DNA of 64,000 nucleotides. It comes from a virus. Taxonomy: Duplodnaviria > Heunggongvirae > Uroviricota > Caudoviricetes. The stretch lies in IMG/VR virus record IMGVR_UViG_3300042691_029887, positions 10,845 to 74,844 of that record; one strand, given 5' to 3'. Both the position numbers and the translations under genes were made by a program. Shown one piece after another: positions 7,981 to 52,365 of the stretch (positions are counted from its first letter, which is position 1; every line of letters starts with the position of its first letter). Below the pieces are notes generated by a model, which was not told where the DNA came from, did no database searches, and was given only the letters and a program-made list of their open reading frames with translations.

Positions 7981-8566
7981 TTGGTCGTTTATCTACTATA
8001 TGATCCACTAGTCCGTAATCTAAGGACTCTTGTGCATTCATATACTTATCACGCTCCATATCCAAGCTCAGTTGATCAAAAGTTTTTTCTTTGCTGTTGT
8101 GTTTAACATAAATTCCTGTCAGCTCTTTTTTGATCTTTAGTATTTCTTCAACTTGAATCTGCATGTCTGTAGCCTGCCCTCGGGCACCACCACTAGGTTG
8201 ATGTATCATGTGTCGAGCATTAGGCAACATATATCGTTTTCCTGGAGTGCCTGATTGTGCTAACAAACTGCCCATACTACAGGCCTGTCCCATGACATAT
8301 GTACAGACATCAGGTTTAATGAATTGCATGGTATCATAGATACTCATACCTGCAGTAACTACTCCGCCAGGACTATTGATATACATGTGTATATCACCTT
8401 CCCCTTCACTTTCTAAGAACAGTAATTGCGCTACAATTAAATTAGCCATGTAATCTTCAACTTGTCCATTTAAAAAGATTACACGATCTTTCAATAGACG
8501 ACTATAGATATCATAGGAACGCTCACCTTGACTACTTTTTTCTACTACGATTGGTACTAAACTCAT
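7967..8566 (-). CDS. clpP: ATP-dependent Clp protease proteolytic subunit ClpP
   Basis: 199 aa; ClpP motifs INSPGG, catalytic Ser in GQACSMGS, His in MIHQP. Confidence 0.93.
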
Positions 8567-16730: not shown

Positions 16731-16822
16731 TGGTACCTCGGGCGGGAGTCGAACCCACATTGGCCAATTATCTGTTGCACACGGGATATAAATCCGCTGT
16801 TTTACCGTTAAACTACCGAGGT
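16731..16822 (-). tRNA. tRNA-like gene, ~92 nt, long variable region, anticodon uncertain (loop TTTATAT, possibly Ile-UAU type); unusual A1-U72 start
   Basis: Perfect 7-bp acceptor ACCTCGG/CCGAGGT + ACCA; D-arm GTTT-AACGGTA-AAAC; T-arm GTGGG-TTCGACT-CCCGC; the anticodon stem has a mismatch and there is a 22-nt variable segment. Confidence 0.55.
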
Positions 16823-27157: not shown

Positions 27158-27841
27158 CTATTTACCAATTTCAGGGAACAGACAATCTTGTATGAATACA
27201 CGTACATCTTCCTCATTTAGCCCTAAACTAGCCATTACACGCGGTGTATGGGGGTTTTGCTTTTGATTGTATGCGTAGTAGTTTTGTTCTTCTTTAGTAT
27301 TGTTAGCAGTATTGTTAGTTTCGCCTACAGTTTCTAAATAGTGATTAATACTGTCTTTAGCAAACTGTACAATCTGATCTAGTTCTTCCTGCTTTTGCAC
27401 GTTACCTGCGGCTATCATACTTCCGCTAAAAATACGCTCTGCCCAATCAGGAAGTTTGCGTACTTTATTCCATTCTAGTTTCTGTGCTTCGTCCGCAAAG
27501 TAGTCTAGCATTGGATGTTCTTTATCGCCGCCTGGACTGTAGTCTATGAAACAGCCAGTAATTTTATTCTTGCCTGCGATAACATCGAACCCAAATATCG
27601 GTGCCGGATTATGTGTATGAGGGAAGACACAACAGTGCATCATCCACAAGCCTTTAGTCTCTCTAGCATCTACTACATCTATATGTGCTCTGCGATAATT
27701 ATCAGAAGTCCATACACGATTGACCCAACCAGGCTGATTGAATCTATCCATTCCTGGTTCTTGTGTTTCTACACCTGTGTTATTGAAACTCTCTTCCAGT
27801 AGTGTCTGTATTTGAATCAATGTATTCCAGACTTGGCTCAT
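27158..27841 (-). CDS. ferredoxin-dependent bilin reductase (PebA/PebS/PcyA family)
   Basis: 227 aa; FDBR signature LWMMHCCVFPHTHNPAPIFGFDVIAG...CFIDYSP (HxxxFP...PIFGxDxV...DxSP) and N-terminal W..RRAHIDVVDA block. Confidence 0.72.
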   Translation of the reverse strand: MSQVWNTLIQIQTLLEESFNNTGVETQEPGMDRFNQPGWVNRVWTSDNYRRAHIDVVDARETKGLWMMHCCVFPHTHNPAPIFGFDVIAGKNKITGCFIDYSPGGDKEHPMLDYFADEAQKLEWNKVRKLPDWAERIFSGSMIAAGNVQKQEELDQIVQFAKDSINHYLETVGETNNTANNTKEEQNYYAYNQKQNPHTPRVMASLGLNEEDVRVFIQDCLFPEIGK

Positions 27842-28379
27842 TATAAAGTTCCTTCATCATTTTAATTGCCCACTCAAAAGCCACACGAGCTTCGTCGCCA
27901 AGATCATCAGTTAGTTCAGATCTTATAGAAACTTTGAGTTCTTCTGGATTTTTAAAATCATAGAAGCGACCTTTTGAAATATGAGCTACTTGTTTCTTGA
28001 TTATCTGACCTCCGTATAAATCACCCATGTGTCTACAATACAAGTGTGCTTTTATTTTTGGTCTCTGTTGTGGATCACGTACTAGATCTAATAGATAATT
28101 GTAATACTCTAATGTTCCAGGCAACCATTTGTATTTGTGATCAACACCTGCGATTTCAATAAAATCTTGATAGATTTCATGAGTGCGTTCTAATCCTGGA
28201 AGTTTAGTAAAATTTCCTTCTACACGATTACCGAGTTCTATGATGTTGTAAATTAATACCATTTGATAAAGATAATTTGCATAATCTTCTTTATCTATTT
28301 TGCCACTTAATAAAAGTTTAGCAAACTTTGTAGTTTCTGCGTCATGATGAAGATCTTTTGTGATTTCTTTTAAGCTCAT
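27780..28379 (-). CDS. heme oxygenase
   Basis: 199 aa; HO N-terminal helix with proximal His (LKEITKDLHHDAETTKFAK), YxxxxxxY and GDLYGGQ-like motif (MGDLYGGQII). Confidence 0.75.
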   Translation of the reverse strand: MSLKEITKDLHHDAETTKFAKLLLSGKIDKEDYANYLYQMVLIYNIIELGNRVEGNFTKLPGLERTHEIYQDFIEIAGVDHKYKWLPGTLEYYNYLLDLVRDPQQRPKIKAHLYCRHMGDLYGGQIIKKQVAHISKGRFYDFKNPEELKVSIRSELTDDLGDEARVAFEWAIKMMKELYNEPSLEYIDSNTDTTGREFQ

Positions 28380-28382
28380 AAA

Positions 28383-28685
28383 TCATTCCGATTCAATTTT
28401 GACAGTTAATGGATGACCAGCGGCTCTTGCGATAGCAGTAGTTTCTATTCCTTTCTGCTCGGCGATTTCAAAAGGATAAACACCCACAACAGCAAACCCG
28501 TCGTTGTGAATTTTTAATGTTAAATTTTGACTGACTTCTTCATTGTGATGAAATATATTCACCAGAACTTCTATGACAAAATCCATAGGAGTTTTATCAT
28601 CATTTACAAAAATAACTTTAAACTTTCTTGGTTCTATGATATTAGTAGTAACGAGATTTTTTTGTTCAGTTGCTGTATCAGCCAT
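28383..28685 (-). CDS. clpS: ATP-dependent Clp protease adaptor ClpS
   Basis: 100 aa; NDDKTPMDFVIEVL...LKIHNDGFAVVGVY...AGHPL collinear with ClpS. Confidence 0.85.
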   Translation of the reverse strand: MADTATEQKNLVTTNIIEPRKFKVIFVNDDKTPMDFVIEVLVNIFHHNEEVSQNLTLKIHNDGFAVVGVYPFEIAEQKGIETTAIARAAGHPLTVKIESE

Positions 28686-28765
28686 TGCGTATCCTGTAAG
28701 TTGTTTGTTTTTATATTATACTAATATTGGGGGAAAGTTGCAAGAACACTCTCCCCCAATAATAT

Positions 28766-29209
28766 TTACTCAGAGTATTTGACGTCTATTCTTCTAGGCT
28801 TCAAAGATTCTGGAACGATCTTTTCTAGCCTAATAGTCAATACACCATTTTTCTGCTCAGCATCAACAACTTCAATATGATCGGCAAGTGGAAAATGACG
28901 CTTGAAATTACGCTGTGCAAGCCCACGATGGATAAAATTCTTTTCATCGCTATCGTCATTTCTTTCAGCTGTAATGATCAAGATATTTTGGTCAATCTCT
29001 ACACTGACTTCTTCTTTATTGAATCCAGTGACTGCTACTTGGATTTCGTACTTGTTTTCTTCCACTTTTACAACATTATGTGGAGGATAGTTGTTACTTA
29101 ATTGATTAGCAAAACGTCTTTCAAAATTATTAAAAACGTCGTCAAAACCAATAAGTGCTCTGTTTAGAGCGTTAAGTGCATTTGTATCAAATCTTACTAA
29201 TTGTGTCAT
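28766..29209 (-). CDS. small heat-shock protein Hsp20/IbpA family
   Basis: 147 aa; alpha-crystallin domain YEIQVAVTGFNKEEVSVEI...GVLTIRL; strong RBS AAAGGAGA. Confidence 0.85.
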   Translation of the reverse strand: MTQLVRFDTNALNALNRALIGFDDVFNNFERRFANQLSNNYPPHNVVKVEENKYEIQVAVTGFNKEEVSVEIDQNILIITAERNDDSDEKNFIHRGLAQRNFKRHFPLADHIEVVDAEQKNGVLTIRLEKIVPESLKPRRIDVKYSE

Positions 29210-29261
29210 TTTTTATCTCCTTTTAAAGTAAGAAAAAATTGAGCCCTATGACGGTGCTCGC

Positions 29262-31148
29262 TTATTCAGGCTTAGTTGCATCCTTAAATTCAGCCTCTAC
29301 AACATCACTCTGTTCTTTAGACTGATTTGTTTCAGAATTCATCTTGGCCTGTATCAAAGCTGAACTTGATTCTAAAAGTTCAGTCAGTGATTTGTTGATG
29401 GTTTCAACATCATCAAGTTTGACTTTTTCTTCTAAGTCTTTGATAGCATCTTCGATCTTAGTTTTTTCATCTACTGTGATCTTGTCACCATGTTCAGAAA
29501 GTTCTTTTTTAACAGTATGTAATTGACCTTCTGCGTTATTTCTAATATCAATAAGTTCTCGCTGTTTCTTATCTGATTCAGCATTTTCTTCTGCTTCACG
29601 AATCATATTTTGAATTTCAGCATCACTTAATCCACTATTTGCTTTAATAGTAATTTTATTTTCCTTGTTAGTCTTTTTATCTTTAGCACTAACACTTAAA
29701 ATACCGTTGGCATCAATGTCAAACGTAACCTCAATTTGAGGCATGCCACGTGGTGCTGGATCAATACCTTCTAGATTAAATTCACCTAGTATTTTGTTGT
29801 ATCGGAATAGTTCTCTTTCACCTTGACCAACTTTGATAGTAACAGCAGGTTGATTGTCGTCAGCGGTTGAAAACACCTGACTTGCTTTAGTTGGTATAGT
29901 TGTGTTTTTCTGAATCAACTTTGTAAAAACACCACCCATTGTTTCAATGCCCAAGCTCAATGGAGTAACATCCAATAATAGAACATCTTTACGATCACCG
30001 CCTAGAACAGCTCCTTGAACTGCTGCGCCAGCTGCCACTGCTTCATCCGGATTAACATCTTTACGTGGAGCCTTACCAAACAGTTTTTCAACTGCTTCTT
30101 GTACTTTAGGCATACGAGTTTGACCACCAACCAAGATAACTTCATCAATGTCATTAGCACTCACACCAGCATCTTTCATTGCGATCTTACAAGGTTCAAT
30201 AGAACGCTGGATAAGATCATCAACTAATGATTCTAGTTTTGATCTAGTTATTTTAATATTTAGATGTTTTGGTCCACTGGCATCTGCTGTGATGTATGGT
30301 AGATTAACTTCTGTTTGATTACTATTTGATAATTCAATTTTTGCTTTTTCAGCAGAATCTTTTAGCCTTTGTAGAGCTAATTGATCATTTTTTAGATCGA
30401 CTCCGTTTTCTTTCTTAAATTCATCAACCAAGTAATCCATAATACGTTGGTCAAAGTCTTCACCACCTAGGAATGTATCACCATTAGTGCTTAGAACTTC
30501 AATTTGTTTATCGCCATCTACATTAGCGATTTCAATAATACTTACATCAAATGTACCACCACCAAGGTCGTAAACAGCCACTTTGCGATCAGCTTTATCA
30601 TTTTTATCAACACCATAAGCAAGAGCTGCCGCAGTAGGCTCGTTAATAATACGGAGTACTTCTAGTCCTGCAATCTTACCTGCATCCTTAGTTGCTTGGC
30701 GCTGGCTGTCATTAAAGTACGCAGGAACAGTAATAACTGCTTGAGTAACTGTTGTCCCAAGATAGTCTTCGGCAGTTTTCTTCATCTTGCGAAGAACTTC
30801 TGCACTAATCTGAGGTGGGGCTAAATCTTTGTCATTAGCCTTAATCCAAGCATCACCATTAGATGCTTCCATAATTTGATATGGCATTAGATTAATGTCT
30901 TTTTGTACAGCATCTTCTTTGAACTTTCGTCCAATCAAACGCTTGGATGCATAAATCGTATTTTTAGGGTTAGTAACTGCTTGACGCTTTGCTGAGGCTC
31001 CAACTAGGACTTCGTCATTAGCGTAGGCAACAATACTGGGAGTAGTCCTAGCACCCTCGCTGTTTTCAATAATTTTAGGAATTCCGTTTTCGACGATAGC
31101 CACGCATGAATTGGTGGTGCCGAGGTCAATACCGATGATCTTTGACAT
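29262..31148 (-). CDS. dnaK: molecular chaperone DnaK (Hsp70)
   Basis: Start at [14 protein letters not shown]; Hsp70 signatures [27 protein letters not shown]; 628 aa. Confidence 0.97.
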
Positions 31149-31178
31149 ACATATCTCCTTATAAAGTAAGATCAATTT

Positions 31179-31195
31179 TGACTAATTTTTAGTCA
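31179..31195. promoter_or_regulatory. inverted repeat TGACTA-N5-TAGTCA in the dnaK upstream region (candidate operator)
   Basis: 6-bp perfect arms, 30-45 nt upstream of the dnaK start codon on the coding strand. Confidence 0.3.
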
Positions 31196-31236
31196 TTGCT
31201 GAATCCCATGATGGTAATCCAGCGAAATTTATTTAT

Positions 31237-31264
31237 ATCTAAAAGTGGGGAGTATCCTCCCCAC
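31237..31264 (-). terminator. intrinsic terminator (GTGGGGAG-TATC-CTCCCCAC + TTTT on the minus strand)
   Basis: 8-bp GC-rich stem downstream of the minus-strand ORF ending at 31346, upstream of the dnaK promoter region. Confidence 0.7.
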
Positions 31265-31345
31265 TGCTTCAATTAAATGTATAATGAGCTATGCTCGTAA
31301 TATATAATATAATACAATATTTATTACAAGAAAAAAATTCACTCT

Positions 31346-31582
31346 TTAAAATTGTAATTCACCCGTTTCGATGATTTTACGCTCACGATAATGGACATTA
31401 ATAAACTTTTTAGCGGAATCGATAGTACTAAATTTTCTTATGACATTGAGACTATGATCTTCTGGATGAGTATGTTTCACAGGCTCCCAAAAAGTCCACC
31501 ATAAGAATTTACGTTCTATCCAAATTTCGTAATGAACATCACCATTACCGTCTTTTTCTTCTACAATTTTATACTGAGTCAT
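31346..31582 (-). CDS. hypothetical protein
   Basis: 78 aa. Confidence 0.4.
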   Translation of the reverse strand: MTQYKIVEEKDGNGDVHYEIWIERKFLWWTFWEPVKHTHPEDHSLNVIRKFSTIDSAKKFINVHYRERKIIETGELQF

Positions 31583-31591
31583 CCCCCACCT

Positions 31592-32398
31592 TTATTTTGC
31601 AATATTGATCAATGGTGATGAATTGATTGGAACTATCATCAATGATCCTTTCTTAGCTGCCTCTAACATAGCTTCTGCTTTCTTTTCTTCAATTTGCAAA
31701 CGTTTAAATTCTAATGACTGCGAGGTATTCCCTGAAGCCAATGCTTGCATTCTTCGACTTTCAGCTTCGGCAGTCTTTACTTCTACTTCTTTTTGTTTAA
31801 GTTCGTTCTTAGAACGTACAAGATCATTGGCACTGGCTACAACTGAATCTGCTGGTACAACATTACGAATCAGCACTTGACTAATAGTAATGCTACCGTC
31901 CAGTTTTTCTTCAGACAAATTGCGAACGATCTCATCACGAATGATCTGTTCCATTGCTTCACGGTTGTCTGCCATGTCCAATGCTTCATACTTACGTGCG
32001 GCTTTGTAAATAGCATTACGAGCATTTTGAACAATGTAGTTGTACATCACGTATGTATCACCCCGTTGTTCAGCATGAAAACTTTTATTCTTAGTAGAAT
32101 AAAGTTCAGCCACTTGTTGAGAATTGATGTTATAAACAACTACAGCATCAAAGTCTTTCATAGTTGAGTTGTCTTTAGCTACCGGAGTCATATTTTCAAG
32201 TACCACATTAACGTCTTTGACCGGAAAGGTTAATACATCACCAATGATGACTTGATTAAACGAACCAGGTAGTAGTTCACCTGGTACTACTTGCTTGTCA
32301 AAACCAATTCTTACGCCAACTTCACCAGTTTCAATACGGGTGCAGCCTGTAGCAAGAACAGCGGCGGCGAGAATAGAGAGAGTAAAAATACGTTTCAT
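31592..32398 (-). CDS. SPFH/band-7 (HflC/prohibitin-like) lipoprotein
   Basis: 268 aa; lipobox LATGC; SPFH-domain core followed by a long coiled coil. Confidence 0.6.
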   Translation of the reverse strand: MKRIFTLSILAAAVLATGCTRIETGEVGVRIGFDKQVVPGELLPGSFNQVIIGDVLTFPVKDVNVVLENMTPVAKDNSTMKDFDAVVVYNINSQQVAELYSTKNKSFHAEQRGDTYVMYNYIVQNARNAIYKAARKYEALDMADNREAMEQIIRDEIVRNLSEEKLDGSITISQVLIRNVVPADSVVASANDLVRSKNELKQKEVEVKTAEAESRRMQALASGNTSQSLEFKRLQIEEKKAEAMLEAAKKGSLMIVPINSSPLINIAK

Positions 32399-32413
32399 GT
32401 GTTTCCTTTAAAT

Positions 32414-32590
32414 TTAAAAAATTAAAACAATGGCGATCATTGTTGCCAAAGTTATTATACTTAGAAAAAAACTATAAGTCAATGACTTGATTAGATTTAA
32501 TTGATCCCATTCAGCCATATTTCTTACAGTCTTTATACCAAAGAAGAACACACTGAAAATAATTATAAAACATAAGACGATTTTAAACAT
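32414..32590 (-). CDS. small membrane protein (58 aa; below the ORF-track cutoff)
   Basis: MFKIVLCFIIIFSVFFFGIK...; two TM helices; lies between guaC and the SPFH gene in the same orientation. Confidence 0.35.
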   Translation of the reverse strand: MFKIVLCFIIIFSVFFFGIKTVRNMAEWDQLNLIKSLTYSFFLSIITLATMIAIVLIF

Positions 32591-32598
32591 TTAGAACC

Positions 32599-33678
32599 TT
32601 ATTTGATAAAGACATCATTTATCTGTCTACTAACTTTTACGAATGTTGTACATTTTGATAACTGTTTCAATGAAGGAGCACCAACATATGTACATGAACT
32701 CCTAAGACCACCTAGTAAGTCTAATATTGTTTCCTTAACAGAACCACGATAAGGTACACGTACAGTTCTTCCTTCACTACTACGATAATCAGCAACACCA
32801 CCGTGATGCTTATTCATTGCTGTGTCAGAACTCATACCATAAAATTCTACAAACTTGCGTACTTCATAATCGTTAGATAACATTCCTGATTGTAGTTTTG
32901 CAAGTTCATACATTTCTTCAATAATTGTTCCACCACCTTCATCATGCCCGGCTAGCATGCCTCCCAGCATCACAAAGTCCGCACCAGCCCCGAAAGCCTT
33001 AGCAACATCGCCAGGACATACACATCCGCCATCAGCAATAATATGACCACCAATACCGTGAGCGGCATCGGCACACTCAATAATAGCACTAAGTTGAGGG
33101 TACCCAACACCAGTTTGTATACGAGTAGTGCAAACGCTACCAGGACCAATCCCCACTTTAATAATGTCAGCGCCACGTAAAATTAACTCCTGTGTCATGT
33201 CTGCGGTAACCACGTTACCAGCAATAATTGTTTTATTTGGAAATACTGAACGCACTTTAGCTACAAAGTCTCCAAAATGCTCACTATAACCGTTGGCTAC
33301 GTCAATACACACGAAACTTATTTCTGGATGAGATTGTAGAATAAGTTTTAATCTTTCGAGATCTTTTTCACCAGTTCCTGTGCTGACGGCAAAATAATTA
33401 CCACCAATATCTTGTAGTGTCGTATCAAAGTATTCCGTACTGATATTTTTTACAAGGCAAGTGAACATCTTATGTTTATACAGTGCATGGGCCATCCCTA
33501 ATGTTCCAACGCCATCCATATTACTAGCCATGATAGGAACACCAGACCATTCATGCTGACTGTGTTTGAATTTATATGTTCTTTGTAAGTCTACTTCTTT
33601 ACGACTACTAAGAGTACTGCGTTTTGGTCTAATAAGAACATCCTTAAAATCTAATTTGATTTCATCTTCAATTCTCAT
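32599..33678 (-). CDS. guaC: GMP reductase (IMPDH/GuaC family)
   Basis: 359 aa; near-collinear with E. coli GuaC: [45 protein letters not shown], catalytic Cys loop. Confidence 0.95.
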
Positions 33679-34262
33679 GATTTAATAACGGCTCCCTTGA
33701 CACCCTCACTGAAATCGTATTCTTCTTTTAGATAAAGATCGTCTAATTCTTCACGAAGGTGATGTTCATCAATAGCTGTCTGTAGCACTTGCTCAATTAA
33801 TTGATTAAGTGTAATATCTTTTTCATGTGCGATCTTCATTAATTCAAACAGTTCATCATCAGGAAGTTCTAGAGGAACTTGTACTCGAGTATCATACTCC
33901 TCTCCAGATTTAATAGAGATGCCTTTTTGTATGAAGTCGTCGTCATTGTCTAAGTCAACATAGTTGACATCATCCCAGGCTTCATTTTTGTTGATGTCAC
34001 GACGCTTAGATTCTTTCTTCATTTTTTTGGCAAAATCTTCATTGACCATACGATATGCACGATTGTGAAGATAATCGTGTGCCTGTACTTCGTAGACTGT
34101 TTGATCTTTGGTGTCAAAGATAATGCTGAAACTATAGCCTTTATGGTCACCGTTCCAGGAATCTAATGTATAGGCGTTTGGTCCGTAACATTCCCAGCAA
34201 TAGTCACTACCTTCAGTAATTTTGTAGTTGACTAATTCCATCCATTCTTTCATTGTAATCAT
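33675..34262 (-). CDS. hypothetical acidic protein
   Basis: 195 aa. Confidence 0.45.
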
Positions 34263-34949
34263 TATAATCCTCCAAGTAATGCAATAAGATGATATAATCC
34301 AAGGATTGCAAGAACAATACTCCAGTTTAACGAACTGCTATTCTTTTTATCTTCAATTTTGTCTACCTTATAGGCACACCAATGGAACCCAGATAGAAAG
34401 ATTAAAGCAAAACAAGCTAGTAATTGTATTAGGAGTAACATTTTGATTCCTTAGTATTAATATAATGATTATAGCACAGTCTAATGAACATAGTCAAGAA
34501 AATTACCATCTTAACTCAAAAAGAAGTGCATCTTTTGATTCTCTAAAATAAAATTGATAATTGGATATAAACCATCTATCTCCCGGCGGGCCGAATACAT
34601 CATTGCACCATTTAATCACTGGAGCTACATTCCCTTCTACAGTTATTACATCATAAGTAACTTCGGGTTGAACACAATTTGGAATCATTATGACCATCTC
34701 AAAAGGAAAAAAGTCATCTGTTTTTTATTTTTAAATTGAAAGGTATCAAAGCTAACTCTGCGACCACAATTATGATCTTCACACCATTTTTGTATTGGCT
34801 CCATATCCTTTTCATTCACCCCTACTTCCCAACCACGTGGCAATACTTCTGTTCTTACTGATAAACTTAATCTACGACTGGTACTAATCCATTTTAGTTT
34901 TTTATTAACATCAGACATTTCATCAATCCAAATGTGTCTAAATTCTGAC

Positions 34950-35819
34950 TTATATGTTTCCATTAGGCACTGCCCAATCTAAAAACTTTTTCCACCATGA
35001 TTGCTCTTGATGAATTTTTTCTTGTTCAATATCTTGTTCTATAACAGAAAAATGTTTTTCAATTAATTTTTTTGCTACATCGTATCTATGATTTTTATCG
35101 TTGGCACCCAATACCACTACTACGAATCTTTTTCCATGCTTTTCAATCACCATTCCTACTGACCATCCTGCAGGATTTGTAAACCCTGTTTTGCTGAACT
35201 TTATTTCATCAAATGCTGCCAATAGCATTTTATTAGTATTGTCTAAAATAACTTTATATTTTTTCTTTTTAATTTCTACATGCTTTAAAATACTAGTGTC
35301 TGATAGAATTGGCTGTAATGCTGCCACACGTATCATTATAGCTACTTCTCCCACAGTAGATGTATTACTCGAACTCAAGCCAGATGGGTCTACAAATCTA
35401 GTATTAATCATACCTATTTCTTCAGCCTTTTTGTTCATGGCTTTGATAAATGCCTTCCTGCCACCTGGATAGTCAGCAGCCAAAAATTCTGCGGCCTGAT
35501 TGTCGCTCCTAACTAACATAGCTGTGAAAACTTCACCTCGTAGATTATTACCAGCAGGCAATCTCGAACCACCAGCAATTTTCATTTCTCTGTTCATATT
35601 GCTGTCATATTCTAATGCTACCATTGCCGTCATAACTTTAGTCAAACTGGCTATAGGTCTAGTAACATTTGCTTCACTTGCTGATATCACTACATCACTG
35701 GTCTCATCATAAACAAAGGTGCTGGCAGGTTTTTTAGCGTGTGCGTTGATACTTACTACCAGTAATATAATCGTTGACCAAATCTTCATGGCCAGACCCG
35801 ATGCTTTTCTGCCACCCAC
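34950..35819 (-). CDS. D-alanyl-D-alanine carboxypeptidase (peptidase S11, PBP5/6-like)
   Basis: 289 aa; signal peptide; SxxK (ASLTK), SxN (RSDN) and KTG (KTGFTNPAG) motifs. Confidence 0.7.
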   Translation of the reverse strand: MGGRKASGLAMKIWSTIILLVVSINAHAKKPASTFVYDETSDVVISASEANVTRPIASLTKVMTAMVALEYDSNMNREMKIAGGSRLPAGNNLRGEVFTAMLVRSDNQAAEFLAADYPGGRKAFIKAMNKKAEEIGMINTRFVDPSGLSSSNTSTVGEVAIMIRVAALQPILSDTSILKHVEIKKKKYKVILDNTNKMLLAAFDEIKFSKTGFTNPAGWSVGMVIEKHGKRFVVVVLGANDKNHRYDVAKKLIEKHFSVIEQDIEQEKIHQEQSWWKKFLDWAVPNGNI

Positions 35820-36062
35820 TCAATGCCATCGTAGTCTTCTATTTGCCATTCCACATCATCTGGGACATCCACTATCATTAATTCAGCAAATCTACCATCT
35901 GCTGATTGACCGAATTCTTCTATCAAAGATACTAAAATAGGATCAGATCTATCTAAATTTCCATGCCACCAATCAGGATCATTGATTCCTTTTCTTTCTT
36001 TATAAATCTGTTCAGCTTTATCACTAAGACTAAACCCGCCGTAACAACGATTTATTACTATT

Positions 36063-36593
36063 TTAGTCATTTTGTTTTTCCTTTGATAATTCGGCTACCA
36101 TCAAAAATTGATCGAATGCTTTTTTTACAGCTGGATTCTTCAATAATTCATTTGCTTCTATCATCATTGCTGTGATACCAGCCTCAGCAATATCCCGAGA
36201 AGAATTTATATTTAGGGTGGCCAAATCATCACCAAACTCTTTGGCTAGCTTGCGCCAAGCTCGACGTTGGCCTTCGGTAATAGGAGTTTTTTGAGGACGC
36301 ATCTCACTGGCCTTAGAAATTGCATTACTGATTGCATCTTCAGCAACACGCCCGGCAGCTATCATGGCCGCATAATTTGGATCAATTTTAAATCGTCGAC
36401 TAGAGCCACCAGGATATACAGATACTAAATGATAGCCTTTTGGAAAACTATCTAATAGTTCATTATCGTATTCTGCTACTGGAAAGTATCTGCGCCCTCT
36501 TTTTTCATAGTAAATTTTTTTCATGGTCAACCCAATCGTATGTTTTTTCAAAAATAGCACGATCACAGATATACAATTCTCCGTCAATTCCAC
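36063..36593 (-). CDS. hypothetical protein
   Basis: 176 aa. Confidence 0.4.
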   Translation of the reverse strand: MELTENCISVIVLFLKKHTIGLTMKKIYYEKRGRRYFPVAEYDNELLDSFPKGYHLVSVYPGGSSRRFKIDPNYAAMIAAGRVAEDAISNAISKASEMRPQKTPITEGQRRAWRKLAKEFGDDLATLNINSSRDIAEAGITAMMIEANELLKNPAVKKAFDQFLMVAELSKEKQND

Positions 36594-36909
36594 GCATTAG
36601 ATAATCACCAGATTTTCCTTGCTTGTAATTTCCTTCTAATGTGTTTACACGAAATTCACTGTCAATCTGTAGTGCTTGAACTACAATAGGTCGCTTCATA
36701 CAATTTTTCATACCTATCACATCTTCATAAGTATCAAAAGTTTTCATTTGGGTTCACCACTTTCAAAAAGTTTAATTAGATCTTTGGTTAATCTAATTTC
36801 TCTAAGTATTGCCTCTTTAGCTTCATTTAACTCTATCAGTTTACAATGCAACCGATCTAATTCAGATGAGTCTCGCTTTGTTGGGAACTGATAGATTTCG
36901 GCCATGATA

Positions 36910-37083
36910 TTATTTAAAATACTTTGTATCAAAAATAATAACTAATCCTACAATTATCCAAAATACAGCGGCTACCATATTTCCATAACTGGCGCCTAAT
37001 ATTCCATTTAAAATATTAAGACCGCCAATAGTATATCCAATCGACGTGCGATTTGTTTGAAACCATTCTAAAAATTTATTCAT
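36910..37083 (-). CDS. small membrane protein (57 aa; below the ORF-track cutoff)
   Basis: MNKFLEWFQTNRTSIGYTIGGLNILNGILG...; ATGA-coupled to the exonuclease stop codon. Confidence 0.35.
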   Translation of the reverse strand: MNKFLEWFQTNRTSIGYTIGGLNILNGILGASYGNMVAAVFWIIVGLVIIFDTKYFK

Positions 37084-37616
37084 TTTCTTGCCACCTTTCT
37101 GAACATGTTTTGTACTCCCACTGCCTGCCTGTAAGCATCTTCTAATGCGTTATGCTTGGCATGTTTTGGCATTTCAGGATCATACCCTAAGTCAAATATT
37201 GTCCTAGTATCCCTGATCTGCCAAAAGTTCCAAGGAAAAGCCTTGCCTAGTTTTCTGTAATACGTTTCTAGAATCATGATATCAAAAACACTACCATGAC
37301 TCCAAAATGCATCACACCCCCAAGCAAATTTATGGAACTCATCTATGACTTGATTGATTGGAAATCTGTTTTCTGGATTAAAGGCTTCGTCAATAATTTC
37401 AGGGGATTGTTTCCCCCACCACTCCAGTGTACCTGGATCTATGATCATTCCTAAAGTTTCACAACTTTCTGTTTCAATTCGACGATAAAGGATGTTATGT
37501 TCACTTCTATCAACATTAGGTCCCCAAGGATCGAATTTGACTGCGCCCAATGTAAGTATCACAGAATTTGGAGTGGTCGCTAAAGTCTCCAAATCAACCA
37601 TAAGATGTTTTGCCAT
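37080..37616 (-). CDS. DEDDh-family 3'-5' exonuclease (DnaQ-like)
   Basis: 178 aa; Exo I VDLETL, Exo II HGSVFDIMIL, Exo III HNALEDAYRQA. Confidence 0.65.
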   Translation of the reverse strand: MAKHLMVDLETLATTPNSVILTLGAVKFDPWGPNVDRSEHNILYRRIETESCETLGMIIDPGTLEWWGKQSPEIIDEAFNPENRFPINQVIDEFHKFAWGCDAFWSHGSVFDIMILETYYRKLGKAFPWNFWQIRDTRTIFDLGYDPEMPKHAKHNALEDAYRQAVGVQNMFRKVARK

Positions 37617-37647
37617 ACTGTTATTATAGTACAGCTAGACTAAAAAG

Positions 37648-37884
37648 TCAATAATTTTTTGGGGGTAATTTGTTCTTTTCGAGCTTTTTAAGCCAACGTG
37701 CCCTTGCGGCACCAGCAGCTCTTTTGCGTCTTTCGCTGGGCTTTACATAGAACTGCTTTTCCATCAAATCTTGTAAAGTACCGTTCTCTTCGACTTTCTT
37801 TTTGAATTTTCGTAATGCTTTATTAAAATCTCCATCAACGTAAACAGTTGATCCTTGCAATTTATTCTCTTTAAATTTTGCCAT
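37648..37884 (-). CDS. rpsU: 30S ribosomal protein S21 (bS21) homolog
   Basis: Basic ~78 aa; [22 protein letters not shown]...[19 protein letters not shown] collinear with bS21; start may alternatively be 37911. Confidence 0.72.
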
Positions 37885-39091
37885 ATTCTTTCTTTTTATT
37901 GTCAAAGACAAATATTGGTAATCCTTGTTTGTTAACTGATTCTTTATTTACCAAAATCTTCTTTAAACCCTTTTTGGATAAATCCTGTGCTTCAAATTGA
38001 TAAGGTATTAATAGTTTTTCTATGGTAGTTCTCAAACCTCGAGCATTTGTTTTTGATACTATGCTAGATTCTACTATCTCTATCAACGCATCATCTTCAA
38101 ATTCTAGTTCGATACCATCTAATTCAAATAAAAATTTATATTGTGATATCAAGTTGTTTCTAGGCTCTATTAGTATTCTTACTAGGTCTTCTTTTTTAAG
38201 TTCTTCTACTGACGTTAGTATATTAAATCTGCCTACAAATTCCGGAATAAGTCCAAATTTAATTAAATCTTTTTGAGTTACTTTAGAGTAAATTTCATCG
38301 GAAGATGACAGCCCTCCTAAGTCACTATTAAATCCTATTGACGTAGGATTCAATCTCTGCCTAATAATGTTTTCTATTCCTATAAAACTACCACCAACAA
38401 TGAACAATATATTTTTGGTATCTACTTCGACTTCTTCTTTCTTCTTACCAAAAATCAAATTAACTATGGTTCCTTCGATCATCTTTAATAAAGACTGCTG
38501 TACACCTTCTCCACCAACATCTTTAACATTTGTATTGATATCACCTTTTTTACTAATCTTGTCTATTTCATCTATATAAATGATTCCGCGACTAGTAGCT
38601 TCAATGTCACCTTCAGCTCTTATCAAAAGTTGTTGGATAATATTTTCTACATCATCACCTACGTAACCTGCCTCAGTCAATGCTGTAGCATCGCAGTGTG
38701 CAAAAGGCACATCAATATATTCTGCAATTTTTTTGATCATTAATGTTTTCCCACATCCAGTAGGACCAATAATCATTACATTACTTTTATCTAAATCAAC
38801 ATAACTGGTTAAAGAAGTAATGCGTTTATAGTGTTGACTTACTCCAACTGACAATGCTATTTTTGCCTCATCTTGACCTATAACAAACTCATCAAGATAT
38901 TCTTTTATTTTAACAGGATTGAATTTTGATATGTCCTGCTCTTTAATTTTTCCGTTTTGCTCTTTTAAAATTTTATCACAGAGCTCCACACATTCATTAC
39001 AAATGGCGCCATTTTGTCCTACGACCATTTTTTCGACATCTTCTTTGCTCTTTCCGCAGAAATCACAGTTTTTAGTTTTCATCGTGCTCAA
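37871..39091 (-). CDS. clpX: ATP-dependent Clp protease ATP-binding subunit ClpX
   Basis: 406 aa; N-terminal C4 zinc finger CDFCGK...CNEC; Walker A GPTGCGKT; LIDEIDK; sensor/arginine-finger region. Confidence 0.93.
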
Positions 39092-39476
39092 TTGGTACCA
39101 CCCTGTCTAAAAATTCTTCGATGCTGTCAACTTTTGATGTATTTACTAATTTAAATATTTCAAACATGTTATCGTCTTTTAAAGAATAATAACAATTTTC
39201 ATAACTAAGAATAAAACTAGATAAAAATTGAGCATTATCTCTAGTATTTGATAGATTGATATATTTGCATTTTGCTATGGCATTTGCAGCCACTAACCAC
39301 TGTAAATTATTTTCGTTATTATAAAAATAAATTGTTATTTCTTTTTTTAGAGATTTTGAAGATAGCCAATGTGAAATTATATCTTGCTCTTCTTCAGTGG
39401 TATTAATTAATATGATACTATAGTTATTGTTCACATGTACATCGGGTGGGCTTACTAAAGTTATCTTACCGCTCAT
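39072..39476 (-). CDS. hypothetical protein
   Basis: 134 aa. Confidence 0.4.
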
Positions 39477-39692: not shown

Positions 39693-40985
39693 TCAGTTCT
39701 TTTTTTTTGGATCTTCCTCGTCCACACTATCCCAAGGCAATGATTTGATTTCACCCGAATCATACGCTCTTTGAATTTCATAGAGGTCAGCGTCCGGATT
39801 TGAATCTCTCCACTTTTGTAAAGAATCAGTCCAAACAACATTGGCTAAAACTTTTTCACGTTCGGCAGCTTTTTCCGCCTCGGCGATCATTTTATTCCAT
39901 GTATCTACTCCAGTTGGCAATTCATCTTCTAAAATTGTATCGTCAGATGATTTGTTATCATTGCCGTTTTCGACTAATATTAATTTGATATTGTTATCTT
40001 TAAATACCGAGTCAGCTAATTTTAAATCTAAAGGCAATGCATCAACATTAAAGTTCTGATAACTTACTTCTGATTTGTTTTGGGATTCGGTCGACTGTTC
40101 TTTTTGATCTTGTCCATCGCCTTCTCGGTCGCCGGGCTCAGCCGATGTGGCGTCCTCTGGCTCTGAGGTTCTTTGGGGTGTTTCTGGGGTTTGTGATTGA
40201 ACCAACTCATCTTTTCGCTCTCCCTTTTCTTGTCTAGACCATTGAAAACTCATTTGGCTAGCCAACAGCAAAAGTACTGCCAGTGGATCAAAGACGAAAA
40301 CGATAGTTATAATTACCCATGTGACTGCTTTTTCTAAAATGTTAGCGTCAGGGTTGTCACCGTAGATAAGTTTAGCGATGTACTTAATAGGTCCTACTTC
40401 TGCTTCTACTTTTCTAACCTCAGTAGCAATAGGTGCTCTTTCTTCGTTAAGTACAGAGATTCGTTTTTGACTTTGTTCAATGTCTGATAGTAAGCGATTT
40501 CTTTCTTTTTGCTGTGATCGGCGAATTTGTACAGCACGTTCTGCTCCTTTTTCATCCGATGAACGGCCCATAACTTGATCAACTGCTTCATCAAGTTGTT
40601 TTAAGGCTTTTCGATTAGCTTCAATGTTGTCTTTTTCGGTCTTAATTTTTTCGTCGTAGATAGCTACCTTAGCCACTACGTCACCTGAAATCAAGTTTTG
40701 ATCTGTGTGTGCTTTTGATAGGAATCCAAAGATACCCATGCTAGTAATAACCATTAAAACAAAAACAGCTACCAGCATGTAGGATTTTAAAAGGACAGGA
40801 GCCCTTTCCCAATTAGATTTTAGCCACCAAGCAGTAACTAATTTAGATAGTTCTAATATAGTTCCCATAACAATAATGGGAATAACTGCCGCAGAAAATA
40901 TGGCGGCGAGGCCAATAACTGAATAGTAAATGGCCACCGCAGAGATGGCCAATCCTGTTAATAATGTCAAATAAGCTAATGCCAT
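39693..40985 (-). CDS. polytopic membrane protein with long coiled-coil and acidic C-terminal region
   Basis: 430 aa; 4-5 TM helices, central coiled coil, D/E-rich tail. Confidence 0.5.
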   Translation of the reverse strand: MALAYLTLLTGLAISAVAIYYSVIGLAAIFSAAVIPIIVMGTILELSKLVTAWWLKSNWERAPVLLKSYMLVAVFVLMVITSMGIFGFLSKAHTDQNLISGDVVAKVAIYDEKIKTEKDNIEANRKALKQLDEAVDQVMGRSSDEKGAERAVQIRRSQQKERNRLLSDIEQSQKRISVLNEERAPIATEVRKVEAEVGPIKYIAKLIYGDNPDANILEKAVTWVIITIVFVFDPLAVLLLLASQMSFQWSRQEKGERKDELVQSQTPETPQRTSEPEDATSAEPGDREGDGQDQKEQSTESQNKSEVSYQNFNVDALPLDLKLADSVFKDNNIKLILVENGNDNKSSDDTILEDELPTGVDTWNKMIAEAEKAAEREKVLANVVWTDSLQKWRDSNPDADLYEIQRAYDSGEIKSLPWDSVDEEDPKKKN

Positions 40986-48950: not shown

Positions 48951-48951
48951 T

Positions 48952-50237: not shown

Positions 50238-50241
50238 AATT

Positions 50242-52359: not shown

Positions 52360-52365
52360 GCAATT

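What the first reader, a model, noticed from the sequence alone, without database searches (positions are those of the whole stretch)
27780..39091. Extensive virus-encoded proteostasis set: ClpP (7967..8566), ClpX, ClpS, DnaK, Hsp20 and an SPFH protein, plus ribosomal protein S21
A complete ClpXP protease with its N-degron adaptor ClpS, a full-length Hsp70, a small HSP and a band-7 protein are all carried by one phage-like genome, together with a bS21 homolog placed directly after clpX. This implies active remodelling of host proteolysis, folding and translation initiation. The S21 start overlaps the 3' end of clpX by 14-41 nt depending on start choice.
Basis: partly seen in the sequence, partly recalled or inferred. 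Interest (0 to 1): 0.6.

Follow-up and report, generated by a model that had tools for sequence, protein, structure and literature searches.

The report
Large phage carries protein-quality-control genes
A large bacterial virus carries its own protein-folding, protein-degrading and ribosome genes, partly in a gene block shared by many related giant phages; the genes are real, but this kind of gene set is already recognised.

Summary
The DNA is viral, not host contamination or a chimera. Independent assemblies reproduce the gene junctions. Among 78 loci compared (nearly all IMG/VR contigs, some from contigs of 200-350 kb), 59 have bS21 downstream of ClpX. The full order is ClpX-(IF3)-bS21-Hsp20-ClpS. 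The cultured Pseudomonas jumbo phage PA5oct has ClpX-bS21-Hsp20-ClpS, with the same 14-nt clpX/S21 overlap.

This window holds a derived form of that block. It lacks IF3. About 8.7 kb is inserted between S21 and Hsp20, carrying an exonuclease, GMP reductase, an SPFH lipoprotein and DnaK. Its ClpX has lost the RKH loop. DnaK came from a betaproteobacterial (Burkholderiales-like) donor before this phage clade diversified.

One correction: ClpS is the adaptor of ClpA/ClpC, not of ClpX. PA5oct-like, Rak2-like and Atu_ph07-like phages encode their own ClpA. None lies in this window.

Phage-encoded Clp proteins, Hsp20, DnaK and bS21 are all published, so this is a new member of a known kind. The tight ClpX-IF3/bS21 linkage is the one under-described point. 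A GOLLD RNA lies at 62381-62842.

The parts
39693..40985 (-). orf430: membrane protein (N-terminal hydrophobic helices, then a predicted coiled coil). It is the conserved upstream neighbour of the cassette.
   Evidence: tblastn finds a homolog 1.7-3.4 kb upstream of the ClpX stop in 58 of 82 viral loci. There is no Pfam, PHROG or NCBIfam match above threshold.
39072..39476 (-). orf134: small conserved protein whose 3' end overlaps the clpX start. It has a flavodoxin-like alpha/beta fold.
37871..39091 (-). clpX (406-aa ORF from TTG; the likely start is the ATG at 39082, giving 403 aa).
   Evidence: It passes the NCBIfam ClpX equivalogs. The C4 zinc finger, Walker A/B, GYVG and SIGF loops are conserved. 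The RKH loop is shortened by 5-6 residues depending on the alignment and lacks Arg-Lys-His. Gene callers used the 403-aa start.
37648..37884 (-). rpsU-like gene for ribosomal protein bS21 (78 aa from the ATG; the ORF extends to a TTG at 37911).
   Evidence: It passes TIGR00030 at 55.6 bits against a cut-off of 28.95. It aligns to ribosome-bound bS21 chains. There is a 14-nt overlap with the clpX 3' end and no Shine-Dalgarno motif upstream.
37623..37651 (-). sigma-70-type promoter TTGACT-N17-TATAAT. It straddles the S21 stop codon and ends 6 nt before the ATG of the next gene.
   Evidence: It is one of 7 perfect matches in the window, against 0.39 expected. It is conserved in L164 and L001. This is a consensus match only; function is not shown.
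37080..37616 (-). Rv2179c-like 3'-5' exoribonuclease, a frequent neighbour of the cassette.
   Evidence: PF16473 scores 118 bits. A homolog lies downstream of ClpX/S21 in many relatives.
32599..33678 (-). GMP reductase (guaC), part of the material inserted between S21 and Hsp20.
   Evidence: The NCBIfam equivalog scores 550 bits against a cut-off of 397. It is present at the same place in L001, L002 and L164-166.
31592..32398 (-). SPFH/Band-7 protein with an N-terminal lipoprotein-type signal (…LATGC…).
   Evidence: PF01145 scores 61 bits. phrog_200 'lipoprotein' matches at 1.3e-33. Homologs occur in relatives L009, L010, L056 and L164-166. The lipobox was read from the sequence.
29262..31148 (-). 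dnaK: full-length Hsp70 (628 aa from the ATG).
   Evidence: The NCBIfam DnaK equivalog scores 997 bits against a cut-off of 648. In the NJ tree it groups with L001 and L002 inside Burkholderiales DnaK. An identical protein with the same neighbours occurs in an independent ENA assembly.
28766..29209 (-). hsp20: small heat-shock protein, IbpA-like, with a C-terminal I-x-V motif.
   Evidence: PF00011 scores 69 bits. phrog_432 matches at 7e-40. The IbpA model scores 130 bits, below its equivalog cut-off. Hsp20 is followed by ClpS in 44 loci.
28383..28685 (-). clpS: N-degron adaptor of ClpA/ClpC-type unfoldases.
   Evidence: PF02617 scores 92 bits. Alignment to E. coli ClpS shows N34/D35/D36, T38, M40 and H66, and the ClpA-contact residues E79/E82/K84, all conserved (the residue roles are from my own knowledge).
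27158..28379 (-). Heme oxygenase (27780-28379) and a PcyX-like ferredoxin-dependent bilin reductase (27158-27841), overlapping by 62 nt. Not proteostasis genes, but a conserved downstream neighbour of ClpS.
   Evidence: Pfam PF01126 and PF05996 match. Hsp20-ClpS-HemO-FDBR is conserved in L005, L012, L014 and L042 and in L338.
7967..8566 (-). clpP: stand-alone ClpP peptidase, about 30 kb from clpX.
   Evidence: PF00574 scores 257 bits. It passes NCBIfam subfamily NF001368 (300 against 249) but falls below the head-maturation ClpP model (99.7 against 120). The Ser-His-Asp context is conserved and there is no propeptide. Viral relatives are 73-85% identical, and one is 100% identical.

Best explanation
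**What it is.** The window is part of a large T4-superfamily-related phage genome. The host is probably a Shine-Dalgarno-using proteobacterium, perhaps a freshwater betaproteobacterium. The phage carries a vertically inherited viral module for translation initiation and protein quality control.

**The core cassette.** The old core is ClpX-(IF3)-bS21-Hsp20-ClpS. It was assembled in viruses, because the order does not copy any bacterial operon. In this clade:
- IF3 is absent and S21 is fused onto the clpX 3' end by a 14-nt overlap.
- About 8.7 kb of accessory genes, including an SPFH lipoprotein and a betaproteobacterium-derived DnaK, has been inserted between S21 and Hsp20.
- A bona fide ClpP sits elsewhere in the genome.

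**Inferred mechanism (not shown here).**
- During a long jumbo-phage infection the phage supplies its own ClpXP protease. Loss of the RKH loop should change its tag specificity.
- ClpS redirects a ClpA-ClpP protease (phage- or host-encoded ClpA) towards N-degron and aggregated substrates and away from ssrA-type substrates.
- Hsp20 holds unfolded proteins and DnaK refolds them, using host or unseen phage DnaJ and GrpE.
- Phage bS21 enters host 30S subunits next to the anti-Shine-Dalgarno end of 16S rRNA and biases initiation towards phage mRNAs.
For: **Gene identity and intact motifs:**

**Viral origin**
- Relatives come from IMG/VR contigs of 164-353 kb.
- PHROG hits and 11 tRNAs.
- The closest cultured homologs are in PA5oct-like and T4-like phages.
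- T4 rIIB lies in the same neighbourhood in a 340-kb relative.

**Cassette conservation**
- ClpX-IF3-S21-Hsp20-ClpS: 26 loci.
- ClpX-S21-Hsp20-ClpS: 17 loci.
- ClpX-S21 only in reach: 11 loci.
- No cassette: 18 loci.
- The cassette-less ClpX cluster with bacterial ClpX in the tree, and cassette-bearing ones never mix with them.

**Cultured relatives**
- PA5oct is annotated ClpX/S21 (14-nt overlap)/2 hypothetical genes/heat-shock protein/ClpS, and later FtsH.
- PA5oct-like, Rak2-like, Atu_ph07 and Phosso phages encode ClpA.

**Not a chimera**
- Identical orf430-orf134-ClpX, ClpX-S21 and SPFH-DnaK-Hsp20-ClpS-HemO junctions occur in separate JGI, ENA and Logan assemblies.
- Base composition is even across the region.

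**DnaK history:** 81-82% identical to L001/L002 against 76% to the best bacterium, and nested in Burkholderiales.

**Host uses Shine-Dalgarno sites:** 48 of 69 starts have an SD-like motif.

**Host-type promoters:** 7 perfect TTGAC-N16-18-TATAAT sites against 0.39 expected.

**Literature**
- Phage bS21 is incorporated into ribosomes (PMC6375957).
- Hsp20 and Clp pVOGs lie within 10 genes of bS21 among 900 phages (PMC9723584).
- ClpS was proposed to feed the host ClpAP system (PMC7824862).
Against: - No function was tested. Expression timing is unknown, and the PA5oct supplementary tables were not available.
- No ClpA, DnaJ, GrpE or IF3 is in the 64-kb window. The partners of ClpS and DnaK therefore remain assumed.
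- The ClpX tree is neighbour-joining with few bacterial outgroups and is unresolved at its base, so a single viral origin of the cassette is consistent with the data but not proven.
- The locus counts include near-duplicate contigs, so they overstate the number of independent lineages.
- The host assignment rests on one gene (DnaK) from a capped, pattern-biased scan.
- ClpS and Hsp20 score below the NCBIfam equivalog cut-offs.
Confidence: 0.7

Rival explanations
1. The proteostasis genes are host DNA: contamination, a mis-assembled chimera, or a very recent capture with no viral history.
For: DnaK is 70-76% identical to betaproteobacterial DnaK and nests among them. Several 'phage' database records with DnaK or ClpX are obvious host contamination.
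Against: - The same junctions occur in independent assemblies.
- Viral relatives are closer than any bacterium: DnaK 81-82% against 76%, ClpX up to 84% against about 44%, ClpP 73-85%.
- Synteny is conserved across dozens of viral contigs and in PA5oct.
- The gene order is unlike the bacterial tig-clpP-clpX-lon, thrS-infC, rpsU-dnaG-rpoD or clpS-clpA operons (own knowledge).
- Base composition is uniform.
Confidence: 0.02
2. ClpP and ClpX serve virion morphogenesis rather than host remodelling. ClpP would be the prohead protease, and ClpX an unfoldase or translocase for scaffold removal or for loading packaged proteins.
For: ClpP hits PHROG head-maturation protease families (phrog_94 at 2e-52). 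It lies directly upstream of, and overlaps, a tail-fibre-like gene at 6901-7980. Iyer et al. suggest that phage ClpA and ClpX may aid virion assembly (PMC7824862).
Against: - ClpP is a 199-aa stand-alone protein with no scaffold or capsid fusion.
- It passes the cellular ClpP subfamily model but falls below the ClpP-related head-maturation model (99.7 against 120).
- It matches bacterial ClpP over its full length (258 bits to the best PDB chain; roughly 60% identity read from the printed alignment), including the mature N-terminus.
- PA5oct uses a T4 gp21-type prohead protease (PMC7318152).
- ClpX sits among translation and chaperone genes, not structural genes.
Confidence: 0.12
3. The module is mainly counter-defence. 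Phage Clp components and chaperones would destroy or neutralise host immunity proteins, or block protease- or chaperone-triggered abortive infection and toxin-antitoxin systems.
For: This idea is published for phage peptidases, ClpS and chaperones (PMC7824862, PMC12619734). Independent loss of the RKH loop in several phage ClpX lineages fits retargeting to new substrates.
Against: - Deep conservation of a fixed cassette together with IF3 and bS21 fits a housekeeping takeover role better than an arms-race gene, which would be expected to be patchy and fast-changing.
- No defence or anti-defence neighbours were seen.
- No target is known.
Confidence: 0.12

Closest known systems
Pseudomonas jumbo phage PA5oct (Wroclawvirus, Arenbergviridae), gp255-gp260
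   Same: The gene order is ClpX, bS21 overlapping the clpX 3' end by 14 nt, Hsp20, then ClpS, all on one strand. ClpX also lacks the RKH motif. QueD, a metallophosphoesterase and the phrog_11903 protein are shared with the window.
   Different: - ClpX is only 41% identical.
- Two small genes, not 8.7 kb, lie between S21 and Hsp20.
- PA5oct did not appear among the phage records with a DnaK homolog.
- No SPFH gene is annotated in the 12-kb stretch of PA5oct that was examined.
- PA5oct adds FtsH nearby and ClpA 21 kb away.
- The PA5oct paper does not discuss the cassette.
Uncultivated viral contigs with ClpX-IF3-bS21-Hsp20-ClpS (IMG/VR), and Atu_ph07/Phosso/AP-J-162 with ClpX-IF3
   Same: They have the same flanking orf430, the same order ClpX ... 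S21, Hsp20, ClpS, and the same strand. ClpX adjacent to IF-3 is annotated in Phosso and Atu_ph07 and is noted for AP-J-162 (PMC11242549).
   Different: The window and its clade have no IF3. Most of these relatives keep a canonical GGRKHP loop. In Phosso, S21 and ClpS lie kilobases away from ClpX.
bS21-encoding phages of Bacteroidota (Chen et al. 2022) and pelagiphage HTVC008M (Mizuno et al. 2019)
   Same: These phages encode bS21. For HTVC008M, ribosome incorporation is shown. Huge-phage bS21 proteins have N-terminal basic or aromatic extensions, and the window's has one too (MAKFKENK...) (PMC6375957, PMC7162821, PMC9723584).
   Different: In those phages bS21 sits among structural genes and the hosts lack Shine-Dalgarno use. 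Here it sits behind clpX, and the phage genes carry SD motifs.
Moraphages and other huge phages encoding DnaK, DnaJ, Hsp20 and ClpA
   Same: They are large aquatic phages with a full-length DnaK acquired from the host phylum, plus Hsp20 and ClpA (PMC12619734). Huge-phage and Lak records also carry DnaK.
   Different: Their DnaK is derived from Flavobacteriales and comes with DnaJ. Here the donor is Burkholderiales-like, and no J-domain protein is in the window.
Bacterial ClpXP, ClpAPS, DnaK and IbpA systems
   Same: The domain architectures and catalytic or binding residues are the same.
   Different: - The gene order is not bacterial.
- The RKH loop is deleted.
- ClpP lacks a propeptide.
- ClpS is not next to clpA.
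- dnaK is not next to grpE or dnaJ.

Membership tests
ClpX (AAA+ unfoldase of ClpXP) | Whole-protein score above the curated equivalog cut-offs | tested here: met
   NF003745 scores 478 against 359; TIGR00382 scores 439.5 against 370.75.
ClpX (AAA+ unfoldase of ClpXP) | N-terminal C4 zinc-binding domain, Walker A/B, pore-1 GYVG and pore-2 loop | tested here: met
   PF06689 scores 53 bits. All four Cys residues and the motifs align with E. coli ClpX.
ClpX (AAA+ unfoldase of ClpXP) | IGF loop for docking on ClpP | tested here: met
   The loop reads TSIGFNS. An [I/M/L]GF loop is kept in nearly all of the 93 sequences aligned; two exceptions read AGF and FGF.
ClpX (AAA+ unfoldase of ClpXP) | RKH loop, which recognises ssrA-type tags in proteobacterial ClpX | tested here: not met
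   E. coli GGRKHPQQEF corresponds to FGKKK------EE here. The same deletion is in L001, L002 and L164-168, and the loop was lost independently in PA5oct, L068 and L072. This argues for altered specificity, not for non-membership.
ClpP (S14 peptidase, cellular type) | Curated family score and the Ser-His-Asp triad | tested here: met
   PF00574 scores 257 bits. NF001368 scores 300 against 249, while the TIGR00493 equivalog scores 280 against 308.6 and is not reached. GQACSMG, MIHQP and ERD align with bacterial ClpP.
ClpP-related phage head-maturation protease | Score above the NF045542 cut-off, or fusion to a scaffold or capsid domain | tested here: not met
   It scores 99.7 against 120. It is a 199-aa stand-alone protein.
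ClpS (N-degron adaptor) | ClpS domain and N-degron pocket residues (N34, D35, D36, T38, M40, H66 in E. coli numbering) | tested here: met
   PF02617 scores 92 against 23. All the residues are conserved in the alignment to E. coli ClpS. The NCBIfam equivalog cut-offs are not reached (83.5 against 149).
ClpS (N-degron adaptor) | A cognate ClpA/ClpC partner with an N-domain | not testable with these tools
   The contact residues E79/E82/K84 are conserved. No ClpA lies in the window or within 10 kb of the cassette in relatives. ClpA is present in PA5oct-like, Rak2-like, Atu_ph07 and Phosso phages. The rest of this genome is not available.
DnaK (bacterial Hsp70) | Equivalog score; nucleotide-binding domain, linker, substrate-binding domain and lid | tested here: met
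   NF001413 scores 997 against 648; TIGR02350 scores 924 against 822.6. PF00012 covers residues 13-610.
DnaK (bacterial Hsp70) | Co-chaperones DnaJ (J-domain with HPD) and GrpE encoded alongside | tested here: not met
   No J-domain was found by phmmer, and no HPD motif in a J-domain context, in any of the six reading frames of the window. GrpE was not searched for. The co-chaperones may come from the host or from elsewhere in the genome.
Small heat-shock protein (Hsp20/IbpA type) | Alpha-crystallin domain and a C-terminal I-x-I/V motif | tested here: met
   PF00011 scores 69 against 20.8. phrog_432 matches at 7e-40. The C-terminus reads ...RRIDVKYSE. The IbpA equivalog is not reached (130 against 212).
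SPFH/Band-7 | SPFH domain plus a membrane anchor | tested here: met
   PF01145 scores 61 against 23.6. The N-terminus MKRIFTLSILAAAVLATGC has a lipobox. It matches phrog_200 'lipoprotein'. A partner protease such as FtsH was not identified.
Ribosomal protein bS21 | Equivalog score and alignment to ribosome-bound bS21 | tested here: met
   TIGR00030 scores 55.6 against 28.95. It aligns to bS21 chains of several solved bacterial ribosome structures at E about 1e-7 to 1e-8.
Ribosomal protein bS21 | Incorporation into 30S subunits | not testable with these tools
   This has been shown only for the HTVC008M bS21 expressed in E. coli (PMC6375957).
Viral ClpX-(IF3)-bS21-Hsp20-ClpS cassette | Gene order and strand, with S21 immediately after ClpX (or after IF3) and Hsp20 followed by ClpS | tested here: met
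   The order is kept. S21 overlaps clpX by 14 nt, as in PA5oct. Hsp20 to ClpS is an 80-nt gap. However, 8.7 kb separates S21 from Hsp20, against about 0.3-1.7 kb in most loci.
Viral ClpX-(IF3)-bS21-Hsp20-ClpS cassette | IF-3 gene between ClpX and S21 (the majority form) | tested here: not met
   tblastn with Phosso and Atu_ph07 IF-3 finds nothing in the window at E<0.1. The same IF3-less form is seen in 30 other loci.

The most novel reading that the evidence does not exclude
ClpX and the 30S-platform initiation proteins (bS21, and IF3 in most relatives) are a functional unit rather than mere neighbours. The phage unfoldase would extract or degrade the host's bS21 or IF3, or chaperone the phage copies onto 30S subunits, so that ribosomes are re-equipped for phage mRNAs.

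The repeated loss of the RKH loop (window clade, PA5oct, L068, L072) would mark retargeting of ClpX to such substrates.

The evidence does not exclude this. The ClpX-IF3/S21 adjacency is tighter and more widely conserved than any other link in the set. It is often an overlap, and it does not derive from a bacterial operon.
Probability: 0.1. Interest if true: 0.75.

Novelty: new member of a known kind. Interest (0 to 1): 0.35.

Why it matters
Large phages that bring their own chaperones, proteases and ribosome parts blur the line between virus and cell. They also suggest which host functions become limiting late in a long infection.

For this window the practical value is threefold:
- It shows that the gene set is inherited viral equipment, not contamination.
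- It corrects the pairing of ClpS: it works with ClpA, not ClpX.
- It shows that the set is a rearranged copy of a widespread cassette whose core links an unfoldase to translation-initiation proteins.

A cultured phage, PA5oct, carries the same arrangement. The idea that phage ClpX and phage bS21/IF3 act together is therefore directly testable by genetics, ribosome mass spectrometry and ClpP-trap proteomics.

Tried and rejected
- **Megablast against cultured phages.** Megablast of the 13-kb region found nothing.
- **Exact look-up of ClpX.** The 406-aa ClpX look-up failed because gene callers start at the ATG (403 aa) or saw a truncated variant. This was solved through homolog P0001 and orf134.
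- **ClpA.** It is not in the window or within 10 kb of the cassette in relatives. An IMG/VR scan with E. coli ClpA gave 80 contigs, none with the same name as a cassette contig (compared by eye).
- **ClpP co-occurrence.** Checking it on the same contigs as the cassette failed for the same reason.
- **J-domain search.** Negative.
- **ssrA-like C-terminal tags.** None among the 85 predicted window proteins. This is a weak test, and moot if the RKH loop is gone.
- **ClpX tree.** The neighbour-joining tree separates cassette-bearing from cassette-less and bacterial ClpX, but it does not resolve whether the cassette ClpX are monophyletic.
- **orf134 fold search.** It gave only a generic flavodoxin-like fold. 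I considered it as a CpdR- or RssB-like receiver-domain adaptor for ClpX, but the best match is deoxyribosyltransferase-like, so I do not claim it.
- **PA5oct expression timing.** The PA5oct paper's supplementary tables are not held.
- **DnaK as HscA.** I considered that DnaK could be an HscA for the phage's Fe-S genes, but it passes the DnaK equivalogs and not the HscA equivalog.

Full report
**Observation**

- Pfam gives ClpP (7967-8566, 257 bits), ClpS (28383-28685, 92 bits), Hsp20 (28766-29209, 69 bits), Hsp70 (29262-31175, 866 bits), Band_7 (31592-32398, 61 bits), Ribosomal_S21 (37648-37911, 56 bits) and ClpX (37871-39091; zinc finger plus AAA_2).
- With NCBI's curated cut-offs, ClpX, DnaK, bS21 and GMP reductase pass equivalog models.
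- ClpP passes the cellular ClpP subfamily model but not the phage head-maturation model.
- ClpS and Hsp20 pass Pfam but not the NCBIfam equivalogs.
- The overlap is as described. The clpX stop is at 37871-37873. The TTG at 37911 gives 41 nt and the ATG at 37884 gives 14 nt. Gene callers in independent assemblies chose the 78-aa ATG form.
- The left end of the stated range (27780-28379) is actually a heme oxygenase. It overlaps a PcyX-like bilin reductase (27158-27841).

**Motifs**

*ClpX, aligned to E. coli ClpX*
- It keeps the four zinc-finger cysteines, Walker A/B, the GYVG pore loop, the pore-2 loop and the IGF loop that docks on ClpP.
- The RKH loop is shortened and lacks Arg-Lys-His: GGRKHPQQEF becomes FGKKK------EE.
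- This deletion is shared by the closest relatives (L001, L002, L164-168).
- Most other cassette-bearing viral ClpX keep GGRKHP.
- PA5oct, L068 and L072 lost the motif independently.
- From my own knowledge, RKH loops mediate recognition of ssrA-type tags. Altered substrate choice is therefore the likely consequence.

*ClpP*
- It has the Ser-His-Asp contexts and starts at the position of the mature bacterial N-terminus.

*ClpS*
- It keeps the N-degron pocket residues (N34/D35/D36, T38, M40, H66) and the residues E79/E82/K84.
- By my own knowledge, those last three residues contact the ClpA N-domain.

*bS21*
- It aligns to bS21 chains from solved bacterial ribosome structures.
- It has a short basic and aromatic N-terminal extension, as reported for huge-phage S21 (PMC7162821).

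**Is it viral, and is the assembly sound?**
- A ClpX-based scan of IMG/VR returned 80 viral loci. The closest (72-73% identity) come from contigs of 215 and 246 kb, and others from contigs up to 353 kb.
- The big protein database holds relatives up to 84% identical, one on a 340,750-bp contig whose neighbourhood includes T4 rIIB and Cpn10.
- The window has 11 tRNAs, tail-fibre-like and phage-family proteins and about 91% coding density.
- Its phrog_11903 protein has its best cultured homologs in PA5oct-like phages and in T4-like phages of alpha- and betaproteobacteria.
- Independent JGI, ENA and Logan assemblies reproduce three junctions with identical proteins: orf430-orf134-ClpX, ClpX-S21-exonuclease, and SPFH-orf78-DnaK-Hsp20-ClpS-HemO-bilin reductase-orf473.
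- GC content is even across the region.

**What it is: a conserved viral cassette**

I searched the sequence downstream of ClpX in 78 loci with at least 3 kb available, using iterated profiles. The set includes the window, PA5oct and Phosso.

| Architecture | Loci |
|---|---|
| ClpX-IF3-S21-Hsp20-ClpS | 26 |
| ClpX-S21-Hsp20-ClpS (includes the window and PA5oct) | 17 |
| ClpX-S21, with the rest out of reach | 11 |
| Partial forms | 6 |
| No cassette | 18 |

- Some loci are near-duplicates, so these are not counts of independent lineages.
- The roughly 500-bp gene between ClpX and S21 in the majority form is translation initiation factor IF-3.
- In a neighbour-joining tree the 18 cassette-less ClpX cluster with E. 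coli, Acinetobacter and Listeria ClpX. The cassette-bearing ClpX form several deep groups that never mix with them. The base of the tree is unresolved.
- A membrane and coiled-coil protein (orf430) lies upstream in 58 of 82 loci.
- The order does not copy the bacterial operons tig-clpP-clpX-lon, thrS-infC, rpsU-dnaG-rpoD or clpS-clpA (own knowledge). It was therefore built in viruses.
- S21 overlaps or abuts ClpX wherever IF3 is absent: 14 nt here, 17 nt in L001/L002/L164, 14 nt in PA5oct, and 4 nt or a few nt of spacer elsewhere.
- S21 has no Shine-Dalgarno motif, although 48 of 69 window genes do. This fits translational coupling.
- A strain variant (L167/L168) has a 26-nt deletion that truncates ClpX by 20 residues and removes the overlap.

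**The cultured counterpart**

GenBank annotation of Pseudomonas jumbo phage PA5oct shows ClpX (gp255), S21 (gp256, 14-nt overlap), two hypothetical genes, a heat-shock protein, ClpS, and a few genes later an FtsH-interacting protein and FtsH.
- The PA5oct paper does not mention the Clp, S21 or heat-shock genes.
- Phosso and Atu_ph07 have ClpX followed by IF-3, with S21 and ClpS some kilobases away. The AP-J-162 paper notes the clpX/IF-3 adjacency (PMC11242549).
- Chen et al. counted Hsp20 (127 genomes) and two Clp pVOGs (50 and 47 genomes) within ten genes of bS21 among 900 phage genomes (PMC9723584).
- Iyer et al. list ClpP, ClpS, ClpA, ClpX and Hsp20 in jumbo phages, and propose that ClpS feeds the host ClpAP system (PMC7824862).
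- In the searchable library I found no paper that describes the cassette as such. The library is incomplete.

**What is particular to this window**
- Between S21 and Hsp20 there are about 8.7 kb carrying an Rv2179c-like exoribonuclease, a PGDYG protein, an S11 D-Ala-D-Ala peptidase, GMP reductase, the SPFH lipoprotein and DnaK.
- The same expansion is seen in L001 and L002.
- DnaK is 81-82% identical to that of L001/L002 and 76% to the best bacterial hits. In the tree the three viral sequences form one long branch inside Burkholderiales.
- DnaK genes of three other cassette-bearing contigs branch elsewhere. DnaK was therefore captured from a betaproteobacterium before this clade split, and independently in other phages.
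- The scan behind this result was capped and pattern-biased, so the donor and host call is tentative.
- Full-length DnaK is otherwise found in huge phages, Lak phages and moraphages (PMC12619734).
- No J-domain protein is in the window.
- ClpP relatives in viral contigs are 73-85% identical, and one 26-kb contig is 100% identical.

**Correction on ClpS**
- ClpS is the adaptor of ClpA/ClpC, not of ClpX.
- The window has no ClpA.
- PA5oct-like, Rak2-like (121Q, GAP32, CBB), Atu_ph07 and Phosso phages all encode a near full-length ClpA about 43% identical to E. coli ClpA.
- The likely system is therefore ClpA-ClpS-ClpP alongside ClpX-ClpP, with ClpA coming from elsewhere in the phage genome or from the host.
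- ClpS is known to shift ClpAP away from ssrA-tagged and towards N-degron and aggregated substrates (own knowledge). That gives a rationale for the conserved Hsp20-ClpS pair.

**Transcription**
- Seven perfect TTGAC-N16-18-TATAAT sites occur, against 0.39 expected. The phage therefore probably uses the host sigma-70 polymerase, as PA5oct relies on the host RNA polymerase (PMC7318152).
- Near-consensus sites lie upstream of the exonuclease (37651-37623), of orf59/GuaC (34497-34468) and of SPFH (32482-32454). A weaker one lies before ClpS (28743-28715).
- The set therefore probably spans several transcription units. These are consensus matches only.

**Verdict**

This is a new member of a known kind: jumbo-phage auxiliary proteostasis and translation genes.

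The most interesting residue is the tight, widespread, non-bacterial linkage of an unfoldase gene to IF3 and bS21, together with repeated RKH-loop loss. This could mean that ClpX acts on the translation-initiation machinery. That is speculative (about 10%), but it is testable in PA5oct.

Noticed in passing
window 62381-62842 (+): A full-length GOLLD RNA (Rfam RF02032): 201 bits against a gathering score of 150, E=2.4e-55, model positions 1-416. A tRNA-Asn is embedded at 62445-62515, and the RNA sits at the head of a tRNA array (61834-63789). GOLLD is a large structured RNA of unknown function, known from lake metagenomes and phages.
   Followed up: no
window 145-3948 (-): A virus-encoded Fe-S cluster assembly set. 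It comprises an IscU/NifU-type scaffold (with an LPPVK motif), an A-type carrier, an Fe/Mn superoxide dismutase, a short class-V aminotransferase (SufS-like), SufB/D and the SufC ATPase. It may serve the radical-SAM cluster on the other side of the window.
   Followed up: partly
window 47874-59620 (+), with 49548-50237, 53525-54217 and 54204-54965: A cluster of at least five radical-SAM-like proteins, one of them 539 aa. It is interleaved with three paralogous proteins of about 230-250 aa, plus sugar and oxidoreductase genes. GC drops to 27-31% here. It looks like a modification or biosynthesis island.
   Followed up: no
window 27158-28379 (-): A heme oxygenase and a PcyX-like ferredoxin-dependent bilin reductase overlap by 62 nt. 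The pair is conserved directly after ClpS in relatives L005, L012, L014, L042 and L338. The same gene pair is reported in large freshwater phages (bioRxiv 10.1101/2020.02.13.942896).
   Followed up: partly
window 37623-37651 (-) and gene start 37616: A perfect TTGACT-N17-TATAAT straddles the S21 stop codon and ends 6 nt before the ATG of the exoribonuclease gene. This suggests a leaderless or near-leaderless mRNA. It is conserved in L164 and L001.
   Followed up: partly
window 38430-38480 region of clpX (protein residues about 208-225): Deletion of the RKH loop in this clade's ClpX. The motif was lost independently in PA5oct, L068 and L072. RKN replaces RKH in Atu_ph07, Phosso, L047, L058/L059 and L078.
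   Followed up: yes
L167 and L168, against window 37885-37915: Two independent samples carry a strain variant with a 26-nt deletion at the 3' end of clpX. It truncates ClpX to 386 aa and removes the overlap with S21.
   Followed up: yes
[not shown]
   Followed up: partly
window 39693-40985 (-): orf430 is a multi-pass membrane protein with a long predicted coiled coil and an acidic tail. It is conserved upstream of ClpX in 58 of 82 viral loci, yet matches no Pfam, PHROG or NCBIfam family.
   Followed up: partly
window 22528-25056 (-): An 842-aa secreted protein with about a dozen Cys-containing repeats of the type CPGYAQAFFTQQC...NALYD. No family match.
   Followed up: no
window 21205-21684 and 21695-22303 (-): Two adjacent paralogous genes encode membrane-anchored coiled-coil proteins with near-identical N-terminal halves. 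No Pfam match for the one tested.
   Followed up: no
window 16731-16822 (-); L081 11335-11427: A tRNA-Ile with anticodon TAT is present here. Phosso also carries one, a few genes after its ClpX-IF3 pair.
   Followed up: no
window 4630-5712, 5966-6481, 34950-35819, 42761-43339: Further host-like genes: a UvdE UV endonuclease, a QueD/PTPS, an S11 D-Ala-D-Ala carboxypeptidase with a signal peptide, and an SleB-type cell-wall hydrolase. In PA5oct, QueD lies directly upstream of ClpX.
   Followed up: no
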